NCBI GenBank assembly: GCA_026413965.1
Contig: JAOAJY010000002.1
Coordinates: 12,273 to 76,272, forward strand
DNA: 64,000 nucleotides
Source: Candidatus Micrarchaeota archaeon
GTDB lineage: Archaea > Micrarchaeota > Micrarchaeia > Anstonellales > Anstonellaceae
Reading direction: 5' to 3'
The notes under the pieces were generated by a model. That model was not told the origin of the DNA, searched no databases, and worked only from the letters and a program-made list of their open reading frames with translations. The stretch's first letter is position 1, and each line of letters begins with the position of its first letter. The position numbers and the translations under genes were made by a program. This document shows, piece by piece, positions 4,676 through 58,385 of the stretch.

Positions 4676-5218
4676 CTAGGTTTCTTCCTCAAAAGATTTC
4701 GACAGATGCTTTGAGGAGATTTCCTGCATCTTCTCATAGGCTTTGTAATACCTCTGGGTTGCTTTGTAAAGGACGGCAGATATGCCAGCAAGAATGAAGC
4801 CTGGAAGCATTTTTGGGCTGCTGAATGCCTCAAGCGCCTCCCCTTTGGAGAAGCTCAGCAGCCCAGAGAAAAGAAAAGAGCACATGCCGGCATAAGCGGC
4901 TAGGAAAGCCGCCTCAAGCCTGTTTCTTGTGCGAACAAGGCTTCTGCCCAAAACAAAGAAATCCTCCACCAGCCTTTTTTCCTCCAAAGCCTCCATCTTC
5001 AAAATTTCCTGCGCATCCTCCTTGCTTATAGGCTGGGCTTTCCTTTCTGCCTTCCTTTCAAGCTCAGAGAACTTTTTCTCAAAAGCCTGGTACTCTTTGT
5101 ATTCCCTGAAAAATCTGCTCTTCACGCTTTCCTTCCCCAAATCCATGAATTTTCTGAAGCTTTCTGCCATCTGCCTTTTGGCTTTCTGGGCATTCACAAA
5201 ATTCCCTCCTTCCTGCAT
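4676..5218 (-). CDS. Hypothetical membrane protein
   Basis: 180-aa ORF with a charged, helical N-terminal half and two hydrophobic segments near the C-terminus (AAFLAAYAGMCSFLFSGLLSF, MLPGFILAGISAVLY). No family was recognised. Confidence 0.5.
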   Translation of the reverse strand: MQEGGNFVNAQKAKRQMAESFRKFMDLGKESVKSRFFREYKEYQAFEKKFSELERKAERKAQPISKEDAQEILKMEALEEKRLVEDFFVLGRSLVRTRNRLEAAFLAAYAGMCSFLFSGLLSFSKGEALEAFSSPKMLPGFILAGISAVLYKATQRYYKAYEKMQEISSKHLSKSFEEET

Positions 5219-5295
5219 CCATGCTGCTTTTTTTTATTATCACCATTGAGGACAGACTCGCAAGGTTTTGGGCGCGAAGCAAAGCGAAAGCTTTG

Positions 5296-5407
5296 CAACG
5301 TAGGGGGCTTTTCGGATATTCTTAGCGCCCCTCAACAAACCCTTAGGTTGCATGTTGGGGGTGAGCCCTCAGGGGGCTTTCCGGTTATTCTTAGCGCCCC
5401 CTAGGGA
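5296..5407 (-). repeat. 112-nt tRNA-trailer element, copy A (directly 3' of tRNA-Ala)
   Basis: The reverse complement, TCCCTAGGGGGCGCTAAGAATAACCGGAAAGCCCCCTGAGGGCTCACCCCCAACATGCAACCTAAGGGTTTGTTGAGGGGCGCTAAGAATATCCGAAAAGCCCCCTACGTTG, matches 13176..13287 at 106 of 112 positions. It begins at the nucleotide after the tRNA discriminator. Confidence 0.9.
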
Positions 5408-5542
5408 TGGACTCGGGGGGATTGGCGGCTGTGCCAGAAATTCTGGCAAAGCTTTCGAACCCCCAGCCTCCTGCATTACGGAAGGCTGCTTTTTTCAGGC
5501 AGCCTTTGCCATGCAGGCGCGCTACCGTTGCGCCACAAGCCC
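5408..5542 (-). tRNA. tRNA-Ala(GGC) with two insertions (anticodon loop ~31 nt, T-loop 32 nt)
   Basis: Minus-strand read: GGGCTTG-TG-GCGC-AACGGTA-GCGC-G-CCTGC-ATGGCA[intron]-GCAGG-AGGCT-GGGGG-TTCGAA[32]T-CCCCC-CGAGTCC-A. A G3:U70 pair (the alanine identity element) is present, and the anticodon is GGC. Segment lengths sum to 135 nt. Confidence 0.8.
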
Positions 5543-5545
5543 AAA

Positions 5546-5770
5546 TCAAGATGGAGAGATGTAAATCACAGAGTCGCCTCGCACAAGCACTGTCCCTATG
5601 CCTCGCTTGACTTCTCCGTCCTTCAGCTGCTCTGCTTTCTCAAGAACCAAATTCATATGCACATCATAGCTGACCATGATGCCCCTAAGCTCGGTTCCGC
5701 CTTTCAGCCCCACTATCACTGTGTTGTTGAGCGCGCCATTGAGCACATCAAAAGGTCTTTTGTCAGGCAT
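5546..5770 (-). CDS. Sm-like (LSm/SmAP) RNA-binding protein
   Basis: 74 aa with Sm1/Sm2 motifs ([26 protein letters not shown]...[11 protein letters not shown]). The stop codon lies 3 nt from the 5' end of tRNA-Ala. Confidence 0.9.
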
Positions 5771-8243: not shown

Positions 8244-9425
8244 CTATATTGCCTTCAGCCTGCGCCCCACTCTCTCAAATGCCGCAAGAGCGTCCTCAAT
8301 GTCCTCTTTTTTGTGCGCTGCGGTTATCATGGTGCGTATCCGCGCCTTGTCTTTTGCCACCATGGGATAGACTATGGGCAGCGCAAACACCCCCTCCTCA
8401 AAAAGCTGCCTGGAGAATTCCTGGGCAAGCTTGCTTTCCCCAAGCATGACAGGGGTTATTGGCGTTTGGCTTTCGCCAATGTCAAAGCCAAGCTTTTTCA
8501 GCCCGCGCTTCCATTTCTTCGCGTTGCGCCAAAGCTTGCGGACAAGCCGGTCGTCTTTCTCCAAAAGCTCAATTGCTGCCTTGCAAGCCGCGACAGTGGC
8601 AGGAGGCGCAGAGCCGGACAGCAGAAAAGAGCGCGCTTTGTTCTGCAGAAAATCATAGAGAGCCTGAGAGCCTGCCACATAGCCCCCCACCACGCCGAAG
8701 GCTTTTGAGAAGGTCCCCATCTCAACCTCAATTTTTCCCTCAAGCCCAAAATGGGAGACTATGCCGCGCCCATGCTCCCCAAGCACCCCGTCGCCGTGGG
8801 CGTCATCCACATAAACAAAAGCGCCGTGGCTGTGCGCAAGCTTTTCAATCTCGTCAAGAGGGGCAATGTCGCCATCCATGGAGAATACGCCGTCGGTTAT
8901 CACCCAGATTTTCTTGTAGCCTTTTGAGCTTGCCTCTTTAAGAATCCTCTCCAAGTCCGACATGTCCTTGTGCTTGTATATTGCCCGCTCGGCTTTGGAG
9001 AGCCTCACCCCGTCAATTATGCTTCCATGGTTCAGCTCGTCTGAAATCAGCAGGTCCCCTTCCACGCCAAGCTGCGGCACTGAGCCCTGGTTGGCAGCAA
9101 AGCCTGTCTGGAAATAAAGGGCGGCTTGCGTTCTCTTGAAGCGGGCGATTGCCTTCTCAAGCTCAAGGTGCAGATCCATGGTGCCTGCTATTGCGCGCAC
9201 TGAGCCTGAGCCTGCGCCATGCGACCGGACCGCCGCAATGGCGGCTTTCTTGAGGGCCTTGTGCTCAGAAAGCCCAAGGTAGTTGTTGGAGCAAAACATT
9301 ATGACGTCCTTCCCATCCACATTGCATCTTGGCCTGCTCCCTCCTGCAAGCCTCCTGAGCTTCCAGTCCAGCCCCTTTTCCCTAAGGGAATTCACCTCTG
9401 ACTCAAGGTATGCGTCAAGATTCAT
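8244..9425 (-). CDS. PLP-dependent alpha-oxoamine synthase (2-amino-3-ketobutyrate CoA ligase / 8-amino-7-oxononanoate synthase family)
   Basis: SNNYLGL, DELNHGSIIDG, DDAHG and GTFSKAFG (PLP-binding Lys) motifs. The start is set at the internal ATG (MNLDAYLESE). Confidence 0.85.
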   Translation of the reverse strand: MNLDAYLESEVNSLREKGLDWKLRRLAGGSRPRCNVDGKDVIMFCSNNYLGLSEHKALKKAAIAAVRSHGAGSGSVRAIAGTMDLHLELEKAIARFKRTQAALYFQTGFAANQGSVPQLGVEGDLLISDELNHGSIIDGVRLSKAERAIYKHKDMSDLERILKEASSKGYKKIWVITDGVFSMDGDIAPLDEIEKLAHSHGAFVYVDDAHGDGVLGEHGRGIVSHFGLEGKIEVEMGTFSKAFGVVGGYVAGSQALYDFLQNKARSFLLSGSAPPATVAACKAAIELLEKDDRLVRKLWRNAKKWKRGLKKLGFDIGESQTPITPVMLGESKLAQEFSRQLFEEGVFALPIVYPMVAKDKARIRTMITAAHKKEDIEDALAAFERVGRRLKAI

Positions 9426-13071: not shown

Positions 13072-13175
13072 GGGCCCATAGTCGAACGGCATTTTCCAGA
13101 AGGCAGGTGCCCGGCAATGGTTAAGACGTCTGCTTGACGTGCAGAAGACTGGGGGTTCGATTCCTCCTGGGCCCA
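13072..13175 (+). tRNA. tRNA-Val(GAC) with a ~30-nt insertion in the D-loop
   Basis: GGGCCCA-TA-GTCG-AACGG[insert ...CCCGGCAATGG]TTA-AGAC-G-TCTGC-TTGACGT-GCAGA-AGACT-GGGGG-TTCGATT-CCTCC-TGGGCCC-A. D-loop plus insert is 39 nt and the gene totals 104 nt. Confidence 0.8.
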
Positions 13176-13287
13176 TCCCTAGGGGGCGCTAAGAATATCC
13201 CAAAAGCCCCCTGAGGGCTCACCCCCAACATGCAACCTAAGGGTTTGTTGAGGGGCACTAAGAATAACCGAAAAGCCCCCTGCGTTG
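13176..13287 (+). repeat. 112-nt tRNA-trailer element, copy B (directly 3' of tRNA-Val)
   Basis: It starts at the nucleotide after the discriminator A and matches the reverse complement of 5296..5407 at 106 of 112 positions. It contains two direct sub-repeats, AGGGG(G)C-[18-nt A-rich loop]-GCCCCCT, flanking a 44-nt core that is identical in both copies. Confidence 0.9.
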
Positions 13288-21218: not shown

Positions 21219-21284
21219 CTGCTGTCTGCGCTAAAGCTTAGGCGCCTGGCAAAATCTCTTAAATCTCACAGGTGAAATTCTTCC

Positions 21285-33893: not shown

Positions 33894-33931
33894 AAGACAA
33901 CCTCCAAAGCCGCGCCAAGAAGGCAAGCCAG

Positions 33932-34004
33932 CGCCCCGGGCAGGATTCGAACCTGCGACCTATGGATTAACAGTCCACCGCTCTACCAGCTGAGCTACCG
34001 AGGC
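33932..34004 (-). tRNA. tRNA-Asn(GUU), uninterrupted
   Basis: GCCTCGG-TA-GCTC-AGCTGGTA-GAGC-G-GTGGA-CTGTTAA-TCCAT-AGGTC-GCAGG-TTCGAAT-CCTGC-CCGGGGC-G (73 nt). Confidence 0.9.
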
Positions 34005-34005
34005 A

Positions 34006-34112
34006 TGCCACAGGCCGGATTTGAACCAGCAACACATCGGTTTCAGAGGATGCTGAGCGCAGGCTCCTGCAAATCTTCAGCCGATTGCTCTCCCAGGTTG
34101 AGCTACTGTGGC
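34006..34112 (-). tRNA. tRNA-Phe(GAA) with a 33-nt canonical (37/38) intron
   Basis: GCCACAG-TA-GCTC-AACCTGGGA-GAGC-A-ATCGG-CTGAAG[33]A-CCGAT-GTGTT-GCTGG-TTCAAAT-CCGGC-CTGTGGC-A (107 nt). Only 1 nt separates it from tRNA-Asn. Confidence 0.85.
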
Positions 34113-47844: not shown

Positions 47845-48657
47845 ATGGAGATTACAGAGGAACAAAAGATGATAGAGGTCCTTGAAAAAAAGTATTTAGA
47901 CAATTTCGAGGCTTTTTTGGTTAAAAATCGGCAATGGTTTCTTGATAGGTTAAAGTCTAAAAATGAGATTAAAAAAGATTGGTTAAAGTCATTCAAGGAA
48001 ACCTGCAGAAGAAATTACGAAAACTCGTCCGAATTGGACACAGGTGCAGAAAGAGTAATTCACAATCTATTCGGGCGATACTCTGAAGAATCTGTGTCAA
48101 AATCTAATGAGTACAAAAAATTGCTTGCGGTTAATTCTTGTCCTATAGGCTCGGATTTAATGTTTGAGACTGACGAAGCATTGATACATATCGAAGTAAA
48201 AACTGCTACGGTTTCAAATAAATCAGATTTTGGAGGTAAAATTCAAATTTCAAAAAACCAGACCACCTATTCTGTAGATAAAATTGCAACTGGTAGAGCA
48301 TACAAATTTAAGCCTTCATTGCCAACTATTTATTCAAATAATAAAATTTGTTTAACTTATGTAATTCAAATTATACATAAAAATGAGGAGGATCTACCAC
48401 AGATTATATTTTTACTTTGTATCCCTAATGGACTATTAAGTTCCATCTATAAAGATGAGAATTGTGCATTGGCAGGAAAACAAACAAAAAAGTTAAATCG
48501 CCTTGGTTCAAGAGGAGATATAAGATTTTTTTATAAGAATGCGCAACGCTTTGAAACTCTTGAAGGGAAACCAAGTAGAATAAAAGTAATTCATCCGTAC
48601 TCATACACAAAAGAATTACTTAAAAAATTTTTAGGTGTTGAGTCTATAGAACCTTAA
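47845..48657 (+). CDS. Putative type II restriction endonuclease (PD-(D/E)xK)
   Basis: GSDLMFETDEALIHIEVKTA fits D-x(n)-E-x-K. It is convergent with the methyltransferase and overlaps it by 14 nt. AT-rich codon usage. Confidence 0.55.
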   Translation: MEITEEQKMIEVLEKKYLDNFEAFLVKNRQWFLDRLKSKNEIKKDWLKSFKETCRRNYENSSELDTGAERVIHNLFGRYSEESVSKSNEYKKLLAVNSCPIGSDLMFETDEALIHIEVKTATVSNKSDFGGKIQISKNQTTYSVDKIATGRAYKFKPSLPTIYSNNKICLTYVIQIIHKNEEDLPQIIFLLCIPNGLLSSIYKDENCALAGKQTKKLNRLGSRGDIRFFYKNAQRFETLEGKPSRIKVIHPYSYTKELLKKFLGVESIEP

Positions 48658-49864
48658 TCTCAGCACATCTCTTTTGAATTATTCTAAGAAATTCTTTTTG
48701 CATTTCTATTCCAATAGACCTTCTTCCAAGCTCTTTTGCTACTTTTAATGTTGTCCCACTGCCAGCAAAAGGGTCAAACACAATATCGTTTTTGCGTGTG
48801 CAGGATAAAATTGCCCTTCTTGGAAGCTCATCTGGAAATATCGCAAAATGCGCATCCTTCAGTTTTCCAGTCGCAAACTCCCATACATCTCCAGGATTTT
48901 TGCCGTTCTCATGGGATTTTACTGTTTGCAATACATAATGCTCTTCAGTCATTATTTTGTCATATTTGTCATCGGCAATGCGCAATATCTCTTTTAGTTT
49001 GAGCCAATCGGATGGCTTCGGCAAACATCTTCCACCCCTATCTGTCCTAAACCAATGTCCTGCAGTGTCTTTATAGCCGAATATCTTATCTATTTCCTCT
49101 GTTGTTATACCGACTTTATTTTTATGCTCTTTTATGAACTTTATTATTTCAAGTTCCAAATCTGCCCCAATTTTGTGTTTTCTTTGCCGTGAGTAAAACT
49201 CCCCATATACAGAAATTCTTGCTCCAGGAGAAGCGCCCATATTGAGCCTTTTAGCATTTCTGAATTTTCCATTATATTCATTTTTTTCAAATTTCAATTC
49301 ATCCTTCATTTTTTCGTATTCTTCAATAGATAATGTAAGTGGCAAATCGCTTTTCCGCAAAAGCGGTCCTTTATGCGGAATTCTTACAGCATCCAAGTTG
49401 AAGTAATATTCTGGAGCTAAATAATTTTCAGTATTTTTCGCAAAGAAAAATATTGGCTCATAAGTATTAGCAAATCTGTCTTTTATTGACGATGGCATAG
49501 CATTTATTTTATGCCATATAATCACATTTCTTATTACCCATCCCCTATTCTGCATTTCAATTGCTAATTTAAATGGTATCATCTGCAAATTTTTCTTGAA
49601 ATACTTGTCCCCTATATTCAAAAAATAAGCTCCATTATCAGCCAAAATCCGCCTTATCTCATCCCCTAACCTTGCCATCTTTCTGATATACTCATCAGGA
49701 GTATTTTCATTTCCAATCTGACCGATTTCGCCATAATCTCGTTGCTGCCAATAAGGTGGAGATGTAACAACAAGATTTACTGATTTGTCTGGCAACTCCT
49801 TTATTCTTTCAAAAACATCTCCAAGCAAAATCAAAGGGGTTTCATCATCAGGAAGTTTTATCAT
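48644..49864 (-). CDS. Beta-class N4-cytosine/N6-adenine DNA methyltransferase (SPPY type)
   Basis: Motif IV VVTSPPYWQQRDYG lies near the N-terminus and motif I FDPFAGSGTT near the C-terminus (N6_N4_Mtase order). SPPY favours m4C. Confidence 0.85.
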   Translation of the reverse strand: MIKLPDDETPLILLGDVFERIKELPDKSVNLVVTSPPYWQQRDYGEIGQIGNENTPDEYIRKMARLGDEIRRILADNGAYFLNIGDKYFKKNLQMIPFKLAIEMQNRGWVIRNVIIWHKINAMPSSIKDRFANTYEPIFFFAKNTENYLAPEYYFNLDAVRIPHKGPLLRKSDLPLTLSIEEYEKMKDELKFEKNEYNGKFRNAKRLNMGASPGARISVYGEFYSRQRKHKIGADLELEIIKFIKEHKNKVGITTEEIDKIFGYKDTAGHWFRTDRGGRCLPKPSDWLKLKEILRIADDKYDKIMTEEHYVLQTVKSHENGKNPGDVWEFATGKLKDAHFAIFPDELPRRAILSCTRKNDIVFDPFAGSGTTLKVAKELGRRSIGIEMQKEFLRIIQKRCAEIKVL

Positions 49865-50019
49865 TTTAATACCTCTCGTCTCCTGTTTTTACGAGGTTTA
49901 TCCCAGTATGCGCTCTTACATTTTGGACATAAAATCGGATATGTTGGTTTTCGAGGTATCCATTGGTGGTAGCATCTTTCACATCTGTATCCATCAATCT
50001 CTATTTTAACTTTCGCCAT
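49861..50019 (-). CDS. 52-aa zinc-ribbon protein translationally coupled to the methyltransferase (not in the ORF track)
   Basis: The minus strand encodes MAKVKIEIDGYRCERCYHQWIPRKPTYPILCPKCKSAYWDKPRKNRRREVLK*. It has CxxC-14-CxxC and a basic tail. Its TGA stop overlaps the methyltransferase ATG (ATGA). Confidence 0.6.
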   Translation of the reverse strand: MAKVKIEIDGYRCERCYHQWIPRKPTYPILCPKCKSAYWDKPRKNRRREVLK

Positions 50020-50199
50020 ATTTTTATTTTATAATGTATTATTTATAAATTATTACTTTTACAAATATTAACTAAAGGATGTATTAAGAGTGGCAGCATT
50101 CTTTGAGGAAAGCAAGGGCAGGTAAAAGCGCAGAATAAGGAAATATTTTTCATTATTAGGTTATAAATACCTGCGCCAAATATTACCGGAGAGGTTTTT

Positions 50200-57062: not shown

Positions 57063-58289
57063 ATGCCAAATTCCGATTTTGACATCAGGCTAAAGCGCGA
57101 ATCCCGCACATCTTTGCAGGCATACCGAGACCAATCCCTCCTGCAAAGAAGGTTCGGGGACGTGGCAGTCAAGCTGTACAATCTCATAGACAGCGGAAAG
57201 ACTGCCTCTGAGCTTATGGCGCAGCTGAAAATAAGCGAAGAGCAGTTCATGCAGATACTGGAGTTCATGAACAACAACGCGATGGTCAGCGTGGTGCAGG
57301 AGGCTCCGCAAGAGGGGAAAGCCGCCGCAAGGCAAGCTCCGCCTGCAGGCTCAGGCGAGCCTGGCGGCCAGGAAGGGGAGGAGGGGCAGGAAAAGCCAGA
57401 AAGCCCTCCAGCAATATCTCCTGAAAAGCTCTCCCCGCTTGAAAAGGCAATTTTCGAAAAGTATGGAGAGATAGGCGTCAGGATATACAGCATGATAGAT
57501 GGCGAAAAGACAGCCGAGGAGATACTCAAGCAGACCGGAGTTTCTGAGGCAAAGCTTGTGGAGATTCTTGAGTTCATGGACCAGCGCGGTATAATAAAGC
57601 TGGAAAATCCAAGCGAAGCAAAGCAGCAGGAGAGCCCCTCTGGCCAAAGCCCTGAAACTGAAAGCCAGACGGAAGAGCCGGCGCTGGAGCCTCGCTTCAA
57701 GCCTCTGATTGAGGAGGAGCCAGAGGAAAAGCCCTTTGTCCCTCCAAAGCCGCCCCCCAAAAAGCCTCCTGAGAAGGAGCAGAAGCATGAGGAGGAAGTT
57801 CCTGCGGAAGAGATAGTGATGGTGGATGTCCCTTCCATAAACAAGCTTTCCATTATGCAGCATGCTCTTTTTTTCGCTGAGCTTTCCACAAAGTTTGACA
57901 AGAAAGCCAAAAGCCTGATGGATTCTGTGGATGGGCAGAAGGATTTCATAGACCTCTCCCTTTCAACAGGCCTTTCGCTTTACGAGATAGATGCGATAAT
58001 GGCTTACTTTGGGAAAAAGGGATTCCTTTCATTCAGGCAGCTTAGCCGCGAGGAGATAAAGAAAAAGTACGGAGAGGACGGGTTTGCCATCTACAAAAGG
58101 TTTGGGAGGGACGGGCTGCTTTTGTATGAGATGATTGGCAAAGAGGCTTCCTTGCGGGACATAATAGTCAAAAGCAAGCTGGACCCTGACCGAGCAATTG
58201 ACATATTGATTTTCATCCACAAAGTTTTGGGCTTGGACATACCGATAGACAGGAACGTGATTTACAGGCAGCTTGGGCTCAAAAAATGA
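57063..58289 (+). CDS. Protein with four winged-helix-like repeats joined by P/E-rich linkers
   Basis: The repeats include VKLYNLIDSGKTASELMAQLKISEEQFMQILEFMNNNAMV and VRIYSMIDGEKTAEEILKQTGVSEAKLVEILEFMDQRGII, plus two more degenerate copies. The linkers are P/E/K-rich. Confidence 0.6.
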   Translation: MPNSDFDIRLKRESRTSLQAYRDQSLLQRRFGDVAVKLYNLIDSGKTASELMAQLKISEEQFMQILEFMNNNAMVSVVQEAPQEGKAAARQAPPAGSGEPGGQEGEEGQEKPESPPAISPEKLSPLEKAIFEKYGEIGVRIYSMIDGEKTAEEILKQTGVSEAKLVEILEFMDQRGIIKLENPSEAKQQESPSGQSPETESQTEEPALEPRFKPLIEEEPEEKPFVPPKPPPKKPPEKEQKHEEEVPAEEIVMVDVPSINKLSIMQHALFFAELSTKFDKKAKSLMDSVDGQKDFIDLSLSTGLSLYEIDAIMAYFGKKGFLSFRQLSREEIKKKYGEDGFAIYKRFGRDGLLLYEMIGKEASLRDIIVKSKLDPDRAIDILIFIHKVLGLDIPIDRNVIYRQLGLKK

Positions 58290-58385
58290 GCCTCAGTTCC
58301 TCAGGCACGAAAGCATGAATCCTTCTGCTTTCAACAGGAGAAAACGCCTCAAAAAATTGAGCCTCAGTTCCTCAGGCGCGAAAGC
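58278..58385 (+). repeat. Two copies of a ~37-nt direct repeat, 70 nt apart
   Basis: CTCAAAAAATGAGCCTCAGTTCCTCAGGCACGAAAGC (58278..58314) versus CTCAAAAAATTGAGCCTCAGTTCCTCAGGCGCGAAAGC (58348..58385). Copy 2 ends in the hairpin GGCGC-GAAA-GCGCC. Confidence 0.8.

What the first reader, a model, noticed from the sequence alone, without database searches (positions are those of the whole stretch)
5296..5407. A 112-nt structured element starts exactly at the 3' end of tRNA-Ala and recurs behind tRNA-Val
**Observation.** The 112 nt immediately following the discriminator base of tRNA-Ala(GGC) (minus strand) match the 112 nt immediately following the discriminator of tRNA-Val(GAC) (13176..13287) at 106 of 112 positions. 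The two tRNAs share no similarity at their 3' ends (CGAGTCCA versus TGGGCCCA). In both cases homology begins at the first trailer nucleotide (TCCCTAGGGGG...).

**Inference.** That junction is the expected tRNase Z cleavage site. Both loci therefore look like dicistronic tRNA-sRNA units that would release a ~110-nt RNA with a defined 5' end.

**What it does not resemble.** I see no convincing ORF, no C/D or H/ACA boxes, and no resemblance to 5S rRNA, SRP RNA or RNase P RNA. I know of no described archaeal RNA family with this architecture.
Basis: partly seen in the sequence, partly recalled or inferred. Interest (0 to 1): 0.8.

Follow-up and report, generated by a model that had tools for sequence, protein, structure and literature searches.

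The report
Conserved tandem hairpin trailer behind tRNA genes
In this uncultured DPANN archaeon (Micrarchaeota), the 112 bases behind two tRNA genes are one and a half copies of a ~69-base hairpin module that relatives also carry behind tRNA-Ala; it is a real, conserved but lineage-restricted tRNA-linked repeat of unknown function, and the layout has precedents.

Summary
The two copies are 106/112 identical, and each starts at the first base after the discriminator of tRNA-Ala(GGC) or tRNA-Val(GAC).

The element is not one 112-nt structured RNA. It is 1.5 copies of a ~69-nt module:
- an invariant 11-bp G/C helix (CCCUAGGGGGC…GCCCCCU-R-AGGG) around a fast-evolving loop of constant length;
- an invariant YUC(U)CACCCCC tract;
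- a T-rich end.

Homologous modules sit directly behind tRNA-Ala(GGC) in three other Micrarchaeota MAGs (ThyX 70-79% identical), in tandem arrays of 2-3 periods. Where intact, each period ends in T4-T7. Relatives without the module have the T-run at +1 to +6. The closest relative lacks the module behind tRNA-Val, so that copy is recent.

I found no cas genes, transposase, integrase, Rfam family, C/D or H/ACA boxes, scattered copies or virus/plasmid matches.

Best reading: a vertically inherited, tandemly duplicating 3'-trailer module that is co-transcribed with the tRNA and cut off by tRNase Z. Any trans-acting function is untested.

Precedents exist: the Nanoarchaeum tRNA-C/D sRNA dicistrons and E. 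coli tRNA-linked repeats. I rate it a new variant of a known kind, of moderate interest.

The parts
5546..5770 (-). Sm-like (LSM) protein gene. Its stop codon lies 3 nt upstream of tRNA-Ala, so it is probably in the same transcription unit.
   Evidence: Pfam PF01423, E=1.2e-20. Stop codon position read. LSM-tRNA-Ala adjacency is kept in all relatives examined.
5408..5542 (-). tRNA-Ala(GGC) gene with two introns: 31 nt after position 37 and 32 nt in the T-loop.
   Evidence: The exons equal the intron-less orthologue exactly. That orthologue scores 66.6 bits against Rfam tRNA.
5296..5407 (-). Element copy 1 as reported: 1.5 periods of the trailer module.
   Evidence: The covariance model scores 5332-5407 at 91.1 bits.
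5366..5406 (-). Copy 1, first hairpin: CCCUAGGGGGC / GCCCCCU(G)AGGG, 11 bp with one bulge and an 18-nt loop.
   Evidence: RNAalifold consensus helix. All pairs are invariant in 5 sequences.
5357..5376 (-). Copy 1, invariant core CCCCCTGAGGGCTCACCCCC.
   Evidence: 19/20 identical to L023. Also conserved in L030, and in L032 apart from G->A at the bulge and a 2-nt TC insertion.
5302..5331 (-). Copy 1, second 30-nt hairpin unit.
   Evidence: Weak covariance-model hit (19.1 bits).
5279..5301 (-). Copy 1 tail ACGTTGCAAAGCTTTCGCTTTGC: a small hairpin and T-rich stretch.
   Evidence: Shared with L023 (GTTGCAAAGCTTCGCTTT) and partly with the tRNA-Val copy.
13072..13175 (+). tRNA-Val(GAC) gene with an insertion in the D-loop region.
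   Evidence: Rfam tRNA at 13107-13175, 29.3 bits. Full gene read.
13176..13287 (+). Element copy 2: 1.5 periods, 106/112 identical to copy 1, with homology fading by about 13297.
   Evidence: The covariance model scores 13176-13251 at 92.6 bits. The element is absent at the orthologous site of the closest relative.
13182..13211 (+). Copy 2, first G5...C5 hairpin unit.
13252..13281 (+). Copy 2, second hairpin unit.

Best explanation
The element is a lineage-specific, vertically inherited 3'-trailer module of the tRNA-Ala(GGC) transcription unit in a clade of Micrarchaeota (Anstonellaceae-like). It tends to duplicate in tandem. In this genome it was recently copied, as 1.5 periods plus tail, to the equivalent position behind tRNA-Val(GAC).

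One ~69-nt period has three parts:
(a) an 11-bp G/C helix that starts 1 nt after the tRNA discriminator;
(b) a single-stranded, invariant YUC(U)CACCCCC tract;
(c) about 15-20 variable nt ending in an oligo-T tract.

Proposed mechanism:
1. The archaeal RNA polymerase transcribes (LSM mRNA?)-tRNA-trailer and terminates at the oligo-T that ends a period. In this genome that tract has decayed to TTTGTTG, so transcription runs through a second hairpin unit into the T-rich tail.
2. tRNase Z cleaves after A73 to give the tRNA 3' end needed for CCA addition.
3. That cleavage releases an RNA of ~70-125 nt that starts UCCCUAGGGGGC. Its 5' helix and U-rich 3' end should protect it from exonucleases.

Shown: the anatomy, the exact tRNA junction, conservation of the helix and C-tract against saturated loops, tandem copy-number variation, T-run displacement, and absence of mobile-element or CRISPR hallmarks.

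Inferred: co-transcription, tRNase Z release, stability, and any function. The function could be in cis (transcript-end protection or termination spacing) or in trans (a protein- or RNA-binding small RNA).
For: Junction and orientation: the A|TCCCTAGGGGGC junction and the orientation are identical in window Ala, window Val, L023, L030 and L032.

Persistence through rearrangement: in L030/L032 the LSM-tRNA-Ala-element block is inverted relative to thyX yet stays intact.

Selection: the helix and C-tract are invariant, while the 19 nt between GGGGGC and CCCCC are almost fully substituted at constant length.

Tandem arrays and decay: 1.5 periods here, 2.5 identical periods in L023, and about 2-3 periods with decaying distal copies in L030 and L032.

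T-runs: first T-run at +67..+72 in family-A relatives against +1..+6 in element-free relatives. A T-stretch is the tRNA terminator in nanoarchaea (PMC3491384).

Phylogeny: the ThyX tree gives two supported pairs (98% and 100%) that both carry the module, consistent with one origin.

Recent tRNA-Val copy: it is absent in the closest relative and 95% identical to the tRNA-Ala copy, including part of the tail.

Constraint within this genome: 5 of the 6 differences between the paralogues lie in the hairpin loops (binomial P=0.015).

Specificity: the covariance model finds only these arrays in 165 kb.
Against: - No expression data exist.
- No stem covaries (0 of 11 pairs), so RNA structure as such is unproven. 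An invariant sequence with a fixed-length variable spacer would fit a DNA- or RNA-binding protein site equally well.
- Folding energies are not exceptional (z -1.3 to -2.0).
- Sister lineages do without the module (L016 and L024), so it is dispensable.
- In this genome no T-run of 4 or more lies within +100 of the tRNA. The first is T4 at about +118 behind tRNA-Val, and there is none within about 138 nt behind tRNA-Ala. The transcript end is therefore unclear.
- How the copy landed exactly at the tRNA-Val 3' end is unexplained.
- Only four genomes could be sampled, and the rest of this genome could not be scanned.
Confidence: 0.6

Rival explanations
1. Selfish or neutral tRNA-linked repeat DNA. 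The module spreads by slippage, unequal crossing-over and ectopic conversion, or by an unidentified enzyme that targets tRNA 3' ends or G5 hairpins such as the T-arm. It is transcribed only passively and the RNA has no function.
For: - Tandem copy number varies, L023's copies are identical to each other, and distal copies decay.
- There was a recent ectopic copy to tRNA-Val.
- Only the two window tRNAs with a G5 T-stem carry the module.
- A related-looking 'family B' copy in L026 sits in a promoter region between 15-nt direct repeats.
- E. coli tRNA-linked repeats have no known function after 40 years (PMC8144298).
- The module is dispensable in sister lineages.
Against: - The helix and C-tract are invariant across lineages whose loops and tRNA introns are saturated. 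That implies purifying selection, although selection for cis-sites needed for propagation would look the same.
- No scattered copies in 165 kb.
- No transposase or integrase in the window.
- The phylogenetic distribution fits vertical descent.
- The family A-B relationship is not significant.
Confidence: 0.25
2. A DNA-level protein-binding site. The inverted half-sites TAGGGGGC / GCCCCCTR at fixed 18-nt spacing would be bound by a dimeric protein, for example a recombinase arm site left by an integrative element that targeted the tRNA gene, or a boundary or termination factor.
For: - Half-sites are invariant, with a spacer of constant length but free sequence and no covariation.
- tRNA 3' ends are classic integration sites (own knowledge).
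- L020 shows a partial tRNA-Ala duplicate 290 nt downstream of the intact gene.
Against: - No partial tRNA duplicates in the window.
- No integrase and no mobile-element genes nearby; the neighbours are housekeeping genes or conserved unknowns.
- No match in viral, phage or plasmid collections.
- The strict orientation relative to the tRNA and the period-ending T-runs point to a transcript-level role.
Confidence: 0.1
3. A CRISPR-like mini-array (repeat-spacer-repeat), or a TIGR or other guide-RNA array.
For: The geometry fits: a 30-nt repeat with palindromic ends and a 39-nt 'spacer', 69-nt period.
Against: - The 'spacers' are identical within L023's array and between the two window copies, and part of the 'spacer' is the most conserved segment.
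- No cas or Nop/Tas genes: none in Pfam scans of 54 of the 64 predicted ORFs, up to 58.3 kb, and none among the 25 PADLOC families displayed for 63 ORFs.
- No Rfam CRISPR-DR hit on the element.
- No protospacer in the window or in viral contigs.
- TIGR units are 36 nt with 9-nt variable spacers (PMC12045711).
Confidence: 0.02

Closest known systems
Dicistronic tRNA-sRNA genes of Nanoarchaeum equitans (tRNA-Val + C/D box sRNA8; PMC3491384) and plant tRNA-snoRNA genes
   Same: A small non-coding RNA gene starts immediately after the tRNA 3' end, so RNase Z cleavage of the tRNA creates the downstream RNA's 5' end. The host is also a DPANN archaeon. A T-stretch follows the unit.
   Different: No C box (RUGAUGA, up to 1 mismatch allowed) on either strand of the window copies. 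The CUGA present is part of a G/C helix, not a k-turn. The module is a hairpin tandem repeat, not a methylation guide.
E. coli tRNA-linked repeats (TLRs; tyrT rtT RNA, rrA/rrB/rrF; PMC8144298)
   Same: One to several tandem repeats lie directly distal to tRNA or rRNA genes inside the same transcription unit. They are transcribed and processed, present at several loci in one genome, and long without a known function.
   Different: TLRs are defined by 18-19 bp at their 3' end that are identical to the 3' end of the upstream tRNA. Here the resemblance is a 10/12 match dominated by a C-run (p=0.28). The domain of life and the sequence are different.
CRISPR mini-arrays / solitary repeat units
   Same: A 30-nt partly palindromic repeat with a 39-nt interval.
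   Different: Identical and conserved 'spacers', no cas genes, no protospacers, and a fixed position at tRNA 3' ends.
REP/REPIN- or MITE-type hairpin repeats
   Same: A short G/C-rich palindromic unit about 110 nt long as a doublet, extragenic, and multi-copy within a genome.
   Different: The units are direct rather than inverted. There are only two copies in 64 kb, both exactly at tRNA 3' ends. There is no target-site duplication, no RAYT or transposase in view, and the element is orthologously conserved at one locus.

Membership tests
CRISPR array | Direct repeats of 23-47 nt separated by unique spacers of similar length | tested here: not met
   The geometry fits (30 + 39 nt). But the spacers are identical within L023 and between the window copies, and they are partly conserved across genomes.
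CRISPR array | Associated cas genes, or a match to a known CRISPR repeat family | tested here: not met
   No Cas family in Pfam scans of 54 of the 64 predicted ORFs (window to 58.3 kb). No Cas family among the 25 PADLOC families displayed, out of 118 matched, for 63 ORFs. No Rfam CRISPR-DR hit on the element. The rest of the genome was not visible.
TIGR-Tas array | 36-nt units of edge repeat / 9-nt spacer A / loop repeat / 9-nt spacer B, next to a Nop-domain Tas gene (PMC12045711) | tested here: not met
   The period is 67-70 nt with no alternating 8-12-nt repeats. No Nop-domain protein in the window.
Archaeal C/D box sRNA (as in N. equitans tRNA-sRNA dicistrons) | C box RUGAUGA and D box CUGA (plus C'/D') forming k-turns | tested here: not met
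   No C box with up to 1 mismatch on either strand of the window copies. There is a single CUGA per period, embedded in the helix.
Archaeal C/D box sRNA (as in N. equitans tRNA-sRNA dicistrons) | The gene starts immediately after the tRNA 3' end, so RNase Z makes its 5' end | tested here: met
   The junction lies at discriminator +1 in five loci. Cleavage itself is not testable here.
H/ACA sRNA | Hairpin with a pseudouridylation pocket and k-turn, and an ACA box about 14 nt 3' of the pocket | tested here: not met
   The consensus structure is a plain helix with a 1-nt bulge. The ACA at +53 in the window is not conserved in L030 or L032.
E. coli-type tRNA-linked repeats (TLR) | Repeats located directly distal to a tRNA or rRNA gene, one to five per locus, at several loci | tested here: met
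   1.5 to about 3 periods directly behind tRNA-Ala in four genomes, and behind tRNA-Val here.
E. coli-type tRNA-linked repeats (TLR) | The last 18-19 bp of each repeat are identical to the 3' end of the upstream tRNA (PMC8144298) | tested here: not met
   The best local match of the window unit to the tRNA-Ala 3' part is 10/12 (AATCCCCCCGAG vs AAGCCCCCTGAG), p=0.28. For L023, p=0.03 uncorrected.
MITE / REP-type mobile repeat | Many copies at unrelated sites with terminal inverted repeats and target-site duplications | tested here: not met
   Only two copies in 64 kb and none elsewhere in about 100 kb of relatives. No TSD at the family-A copies. Whole genomes could not be scanned. One 'family B' copy in L026 has 15-nt flanking direct repeats.
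Integrative-element att site at a tRNA gene | A duplicated partial tRNA 3' segment bracketing foreign DNA that carries an integrase | tested here: not met
   No partial tRNA-Ala or tRNA-Val copy in the window. The flanks are housekeeping genes or conserved unknowns.
Any Rfam family | A covariance-model hit at or near the gathering score | tested here: not met
   Gathering-threshold scan of the window and a permissive scan of 5150-5650 gave only noise at or below 18.5 bits.
Archaeal oligo-T terminated tRNA transcription unit | A T-stretch on the tRNA strand marking the end of the unit | tested here: inconclusive
   T4/T7/T5 at +67..+72 in L023, L030 and L032. In the window the tract has degenerated to TTTGTTG. 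The first T4 lies at about +118 behind tRNA-Val, and there is none within about 138 nt behind tRNA-Ala.

The most novel reading that the evidence does not exclude
The module encodes a previously unrecognised class of archaeal small RNA. It would be released from pre-tRNA by tRNase Z, capped by an invariant 5' G/C helix, and carry a conserved single-stranded UCACCCCC tract and a 3' oligo-U tail. Such an RNA would be a natural ligand for the Sm-like protein encoded 3 nt upstream of the same tRNA. Alternatively, the module is a new kind of hairpin element that copies itself specifically to tRNA 3' ends by recognising G5 T-arm-like hairpins.
Probability: 0.2. Interest if true: 0.65.

Novelty: new variant of a known kind. 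Interest (0 to 1): 0.45.

Why it matters
DPANN archaea have tiny genomes and unusual tRNA biology (multiple introns, split genes, tRNA-linked sRNAs), and almost no non-coding RNAs have been described for Micrarchaeota.

A trailer module kept invariant over roughly 30% protein divergence, sitting exactly at the tRNase Z site and next to an Sm-like protein gene, is a concrete candidate for a tRNA-coupled small RNA or a pre-tRNA processing or termination device.

It also gives a clean archaeal parallel to the unexplained bacterial tRNA-linked repeats.

Practically, the G5/C5 tandem repeats may also break assemblies (contig L023 ends at its array), and they sit next to intron-bearing tRNA genes that ARAGORN misses.

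Tried and rejected
- **CRISPR or guide-array reading:** suggested by the 30+39-nt geometry. Rejected because the 'spacers' are identical and conserved and no cas or Tas genes are present.
- **Collection scans:** I scanned with the window unit's loop-containing pattern GCNCTAAGAATANCCNNAAAGC. Viral contigs gave 0 hits. Genome and metagenome contigs gave only isolated chance hits. The conserved pattern TCCCTAGGGGGCN{19}CCCCCTRAGGG could only be run on viral contigs, with 0 hits.
- **Exact look-ups of the window's own proteins:** failed because the source MAG is not indexed.
- **att/integration hypothesis:** no partial tRNA copies, the downstream ORFs are unrelated to each other, and they have no Pfam, NCBIfam or PHROGs hits.
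- **Derivation of the unit from the tRNA's own T-arm and acceptor strand (TLR-like):** not significant for the window (p=0.28).
- **Homology between family A and the G/C hairpin 'family B' of L020/L026:** suggestive shared motifs (A|TCCC, GGGGGC...GCCCCCT, GAGGGTT...CCCCC) but not significant (p 0.05-0.4), and not detected by the covariance model.
- **Precursor folding, to see whether the trailer competes with the G5/C5 T-stem:** ambiguous.
- **C/D, H/ACA and k-turn motifs:** absent.
- **A target for the linker sequence elsewhere in the window:** none.

Full report
**1. The observation**

The sequence is as described. Window 5296-5407 (minus strand) and 13176-13287 (plus strand) are identical at 106 of 112 positions.

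ARAGORN calls neither flanking tRNA because both carry introns.
- The gene at 5408-5542(-) becomes identical to the intron-less tRNA-Ala(GGC) of relatives once introns of 31 nt (after position 37) and 32 nt (T-loop) are removed. That orthologue scores 66.6 bits against Rfam tRNA.
- tRNA-Val(GAC) is 13072-13175(+) (Rfam 29.3 bits over its 3' part; read in full).

In both genes the shared sequence starts at the base after the discriminator A (TCCCTAGGGGGC...). Both tRNAs end in CCA, so the boundary is uncertain by at most 3 nt. Homology fades out around +122.

- The element is internally repetitive. A 30-nt unit, GGGGCGCTAAGAATAWCCNRAAAGCCCCCT, occurs twice per copy at a 69-nt period. There are 4 matches in the window against 0 in shuffles.
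- The two copies are inverted and face outward around 7.7 kb.
- Folding energy is not exceptional (z = -1.4 and -2.0).

**2. Context**

The window comes from a Candidatus Micrarchaeota MAG. Its ThyX and pantoate kinase are 100% identical to NCBI proteins on a 112-kb contig.

The genes around both copies are housekeeping:
- purL, purQ and two unknown ORFs;
- the element, tRNA-Ala and an Sm-like LSM gene, all on the minus strand;
- thyX, VIT, an aminotransferase, DUF2797, two glycosyltransferases and pantoate kinase;
- tRNA-Val and the element on the plus strand;
- an unknown ORF and dnaG.

Pfam scans of 54 of the 64 predicted ORFs, covering the window up to 58.3 kb, show no cas, Nop/Tas, transposase or integrase genes. 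A PADLOC scan of 63 ORFs shows no Cas family among the 25 families displayed. The unknown neighbours have no NCBIfam or PHROGs hits and are unrelated to each other. The LSM stop codon lies 3 nt before tRNA-Ala.

**3. Relatives**

The first pattern I used contained the hairpin loop, which turned out to be the fastest-evolving part.

Syntenic loci fetched through ThyX and pantoate kinase homologues were decisive.

| Locus | Source, ThyX identity | Behind tRNA-Ala |
|---|---|---|
| L023 | GCA_038895505.1, 79% | TCCCTTCCCTAGGGGGC..., then three identical 30-nt hairpin units and two identical linkers (period 67), then the same tail as in the window (GTTGCAAAGCTTCGCTTT) |
| L030 | GCA_038887295.1, 70% | Same A\|TCCCTAGGGGGC start, same G5-N20-C5 hairpin, core CCCCCTGAGGGTTCACCCCC; periods end in T7/T6; distal copy progressively degenerate |
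| L032 | GCA_026413765.1, 73% | Same start and hairpin, core CCCCCTAAGGGTTCTCACCCCC; periods end in T5/T4; distal copies progressively degenerate |
| L016 | 74% | T-run directly after the tRNA; no element |
| L024 | 76% | T-run directly after the tRNA; no element |

In L030 and L032 the LSM-tRNA-Ala-element block is inverted relative to thyX but stays together.

L025, from the same MAG as L023, has no element behind tRNA-Val.

L020 and L026 carry a different G/C hairpin element ('family B': CCCTAAACCCCGRAGGGGGC..GCCCCCTCC). It sits behind tRNA-Ala in L020 and behind tRNA-Val in L026. L026 also has one copy inside the tRNA-Val promoter region, between 15-nt direct repeats. The family-B copies are significantly related to each other. 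Their relationship to the window's family A is not significant.

**4. Anatomy and selection**

An alignment of the five first periods (A4) gives one RNAalifold helix. CCCUAGGGGGC pairs with GCCCCCU-R-AGGG, 11 bp with one bulged purine, starting 1 nt after the discriminator. Ten pairs are invariant in all five sequences. The eleventh, innermost pair is C-G in three and broken (C-U) in two. There is therefore no covariation.

The 19 nt between GGGGGC and CCCCC are almost completely substituted between lineages but keep their length exactly. The following YTC(T)CACCCCC tract is invariant apart from the first position and one 2-nt insertion in L032. The rest of the linker varies in sequence and length and ends T-rich.

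Within this genome, 5 of the 6 differences between the two copies lie in the hairpin loops (binomial P=0.015).

The pattern shows purifying selection on specific sequence blocks. It does not prove that RNA pairing is what is selected.

A covariance model built from A4 finds only these arrays in 165 kb, both strands: 78-93 bits for first periods and 17-20 bits for their own downstream units. Sensitive BLAST finds no other copy. G5...C5 hairpins are otherwise almost confined to the tRNA-Ala T-arm.

**5. Transcription logic**

- tRNAs without an element have their first T-run at +1 to +6.
- Family-A bearers have it at +67 to +72, exactly one period.
- Family-B bearers have it at about +90.
- All seven element-bearing junctions read A|TCCC.

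A T-stretch is the recognised terminator of nanoarchaeal tRNA genes (PMC3491384).

In the window the period-ending tract has decayed to TTTGTTG and a second hairpin unit follows. Read-through to the T-rich tail (Ala: GCTTTCGCTTTGC; Val: ACTTTTCC) is therefore likely.

CCA is not encoded, so the trailer must be removed at the discriminator, presumably by tRNase Z. That step rests on established tRNA maturation and was not tested here.

**6. Evolution**

A ThyX tree gives two well-supported pairs, window+L023 (98%) and L030+L032 (100%). Both carry family A. Deeper nodes are unresolved. This fits a single origin with loss or replacement in the L016/L020/L024 group, not the patchiness of an active mobile element.

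The tRNA-Val copy is recent, or else recently homogenised. It is 95% identical to the tRNA-Ala copy, includes part of its tail, and is missing in the closest relative.

How it landed exactly at the tRNA-Val 3' end is unexplained. The two tRNAs share CTGGGGGTTCGA in the T-arm and the terminal CCA. They are also the only two of the window's five tRNAs with a G5 T-stem. Homology-seeded ectopic conversion filtered by selection on the tRNA, or recognition of G5 hairpins by some enzyme, are both conceivable. Both are inferences.

**7. What it is not**

- **Not CRISPR or TIGR:** identical and conserved 'spacers', no cas or Tas genes, no protospacers.
- **Not C/D or H/ACA:** no C box and no conserved ACA or pocket.
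- **Not an Rfam family**.
- **Not a typical MITE or REP:** no scattered copies and no TSD.
- **Not an att remnant in this window**.
- **No relatives in viral contigs, GenBank phages or PLSDB plasmids**.
- **Not a true E. coli-type TLR:** the defining identity of each repeat's end with the tRNA 3' end is not met (p=0.28; PMC8144298).

**8. Verdict**

The finding is a real, conserved, lineage-restricted tRNA-linked tandem trailer module.

The element is modular (about 69 nt x 1.5). Its tRNA-Val copy is a recent secondary event. Stems do not covary. The architecture has precedents in Nanoarchaeum (tRNA-Val/C-D sRNA8 cut by RNase Z), in plants, and in bacterial TLRs.

Function remains open. It could be a stable tRNase Z-released RNA, possibly an Sm-protein ligand given its oligo-U end and the adjacent LSM gene. 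It could be a cis-acting end-protection or termination spacer. Or it could be a selfish repeat.

I rate it a new variant of a known kind, with interest 0.45.

Noticed in passing
window 58281-58314 and 58352-58385 (+): A second two-copy direct repeat with almost the same geometry. The 34-35-nt unit is CAAAAAA(T)TGAGCCTCAGTTCCTCAGGCRCGAAAGC, with a 71-nt period, and it begins at the stop codon of ORF 57063-58289. No other copy in the window or in related loci, and no similarity to the tRNA-linked module.
   Followed up: partly
window 5408-5542 (-), 13072-13175 (+), 33931-34112 (-): Intron-rich tRNA genes that ARAGORN misses. tRNA-Ala(GGC) has two introns (31 nt after position 37, 32 nt in the T-loop). 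tRNA-Val(GAC) has a D-loop insertion. An intron-bearing tRNA-Phe(GAA) abuts tRNA-Asn with a 1-nt spacer.
   Followed up: partly
window 5543-5770 (-); L016, L020, L023, L024, L030, L032: The Sm-like (LSM) gene ends 1-5 nt (3 nt here) before tRNA-Ala where I read the junction (window, L030, L032). The LSM-tRNA-Ala adjacency is kept in the window and all six relatives examined, including those where the block is inverted. This suggests an LSM mRNA-tRNA co-transcript in which the tRNA acts as a processing signal.
   Followed up: partly
window 47845-50100: GC content drops to 0.35, against about 0.52 elsewhere. The drop spans an N6/N4 DNA methyltransferase (48644-49864, minus strand) and an adjacent unknown ORF. 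This is probably a horizontally acquired restriction-modification island.
   Followed up: no
L020 ~9225-9325 (-): A partial 3' copy of tRNA-Ala (from the D-stem onward) carrying a 50-nt canonical-position intron lies about 290 nt downstream of the intact intron-less gene, with a family-B hairpin element between them. It is an att-like duplication or a gene-replacement scar.
   Followed up: no
L026 1783-1848 (-), also L027-L029: A family-B G/C hairpin element sits inside the tRNA-Val promoter region, bracketed by a 15-nt direct repeat, CTAAACCCATTTAAA. That sequence is single-copy at the same site in L025. This is an insertion footprint that hints at mobility of family B.
   Followed up: partly
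window 21228-21245 (+): The tRNA-His trailer also contains a G/C hairpin (GCGCTAAAGCTTAGGCGC) 9 nt after the tRNA and has no nearby T-run. Hairpins behind tRNAs may be a wider habit of this genome.
   Followed up: no
window 5357-5364 and 13219-13226: The invariant trailer tract UCACCCCC matches the anti-Shine-Dalgarno end of 16S rRNA (UCACCUCC, from my own knowledge) at 7 of 8 positions, and it lies next to the SD-like GAGGG. This may simply reflect G/C pairing potential.
   Followed up: no
L023 1-20 (contig end): Contig JAWANE010000083.1 of GCA_038895505.1 ends at the tail of the 2.5-period array. This suggests the repeat breaks the assembly there, and that the true copy number may be higher.
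   Followed up: no
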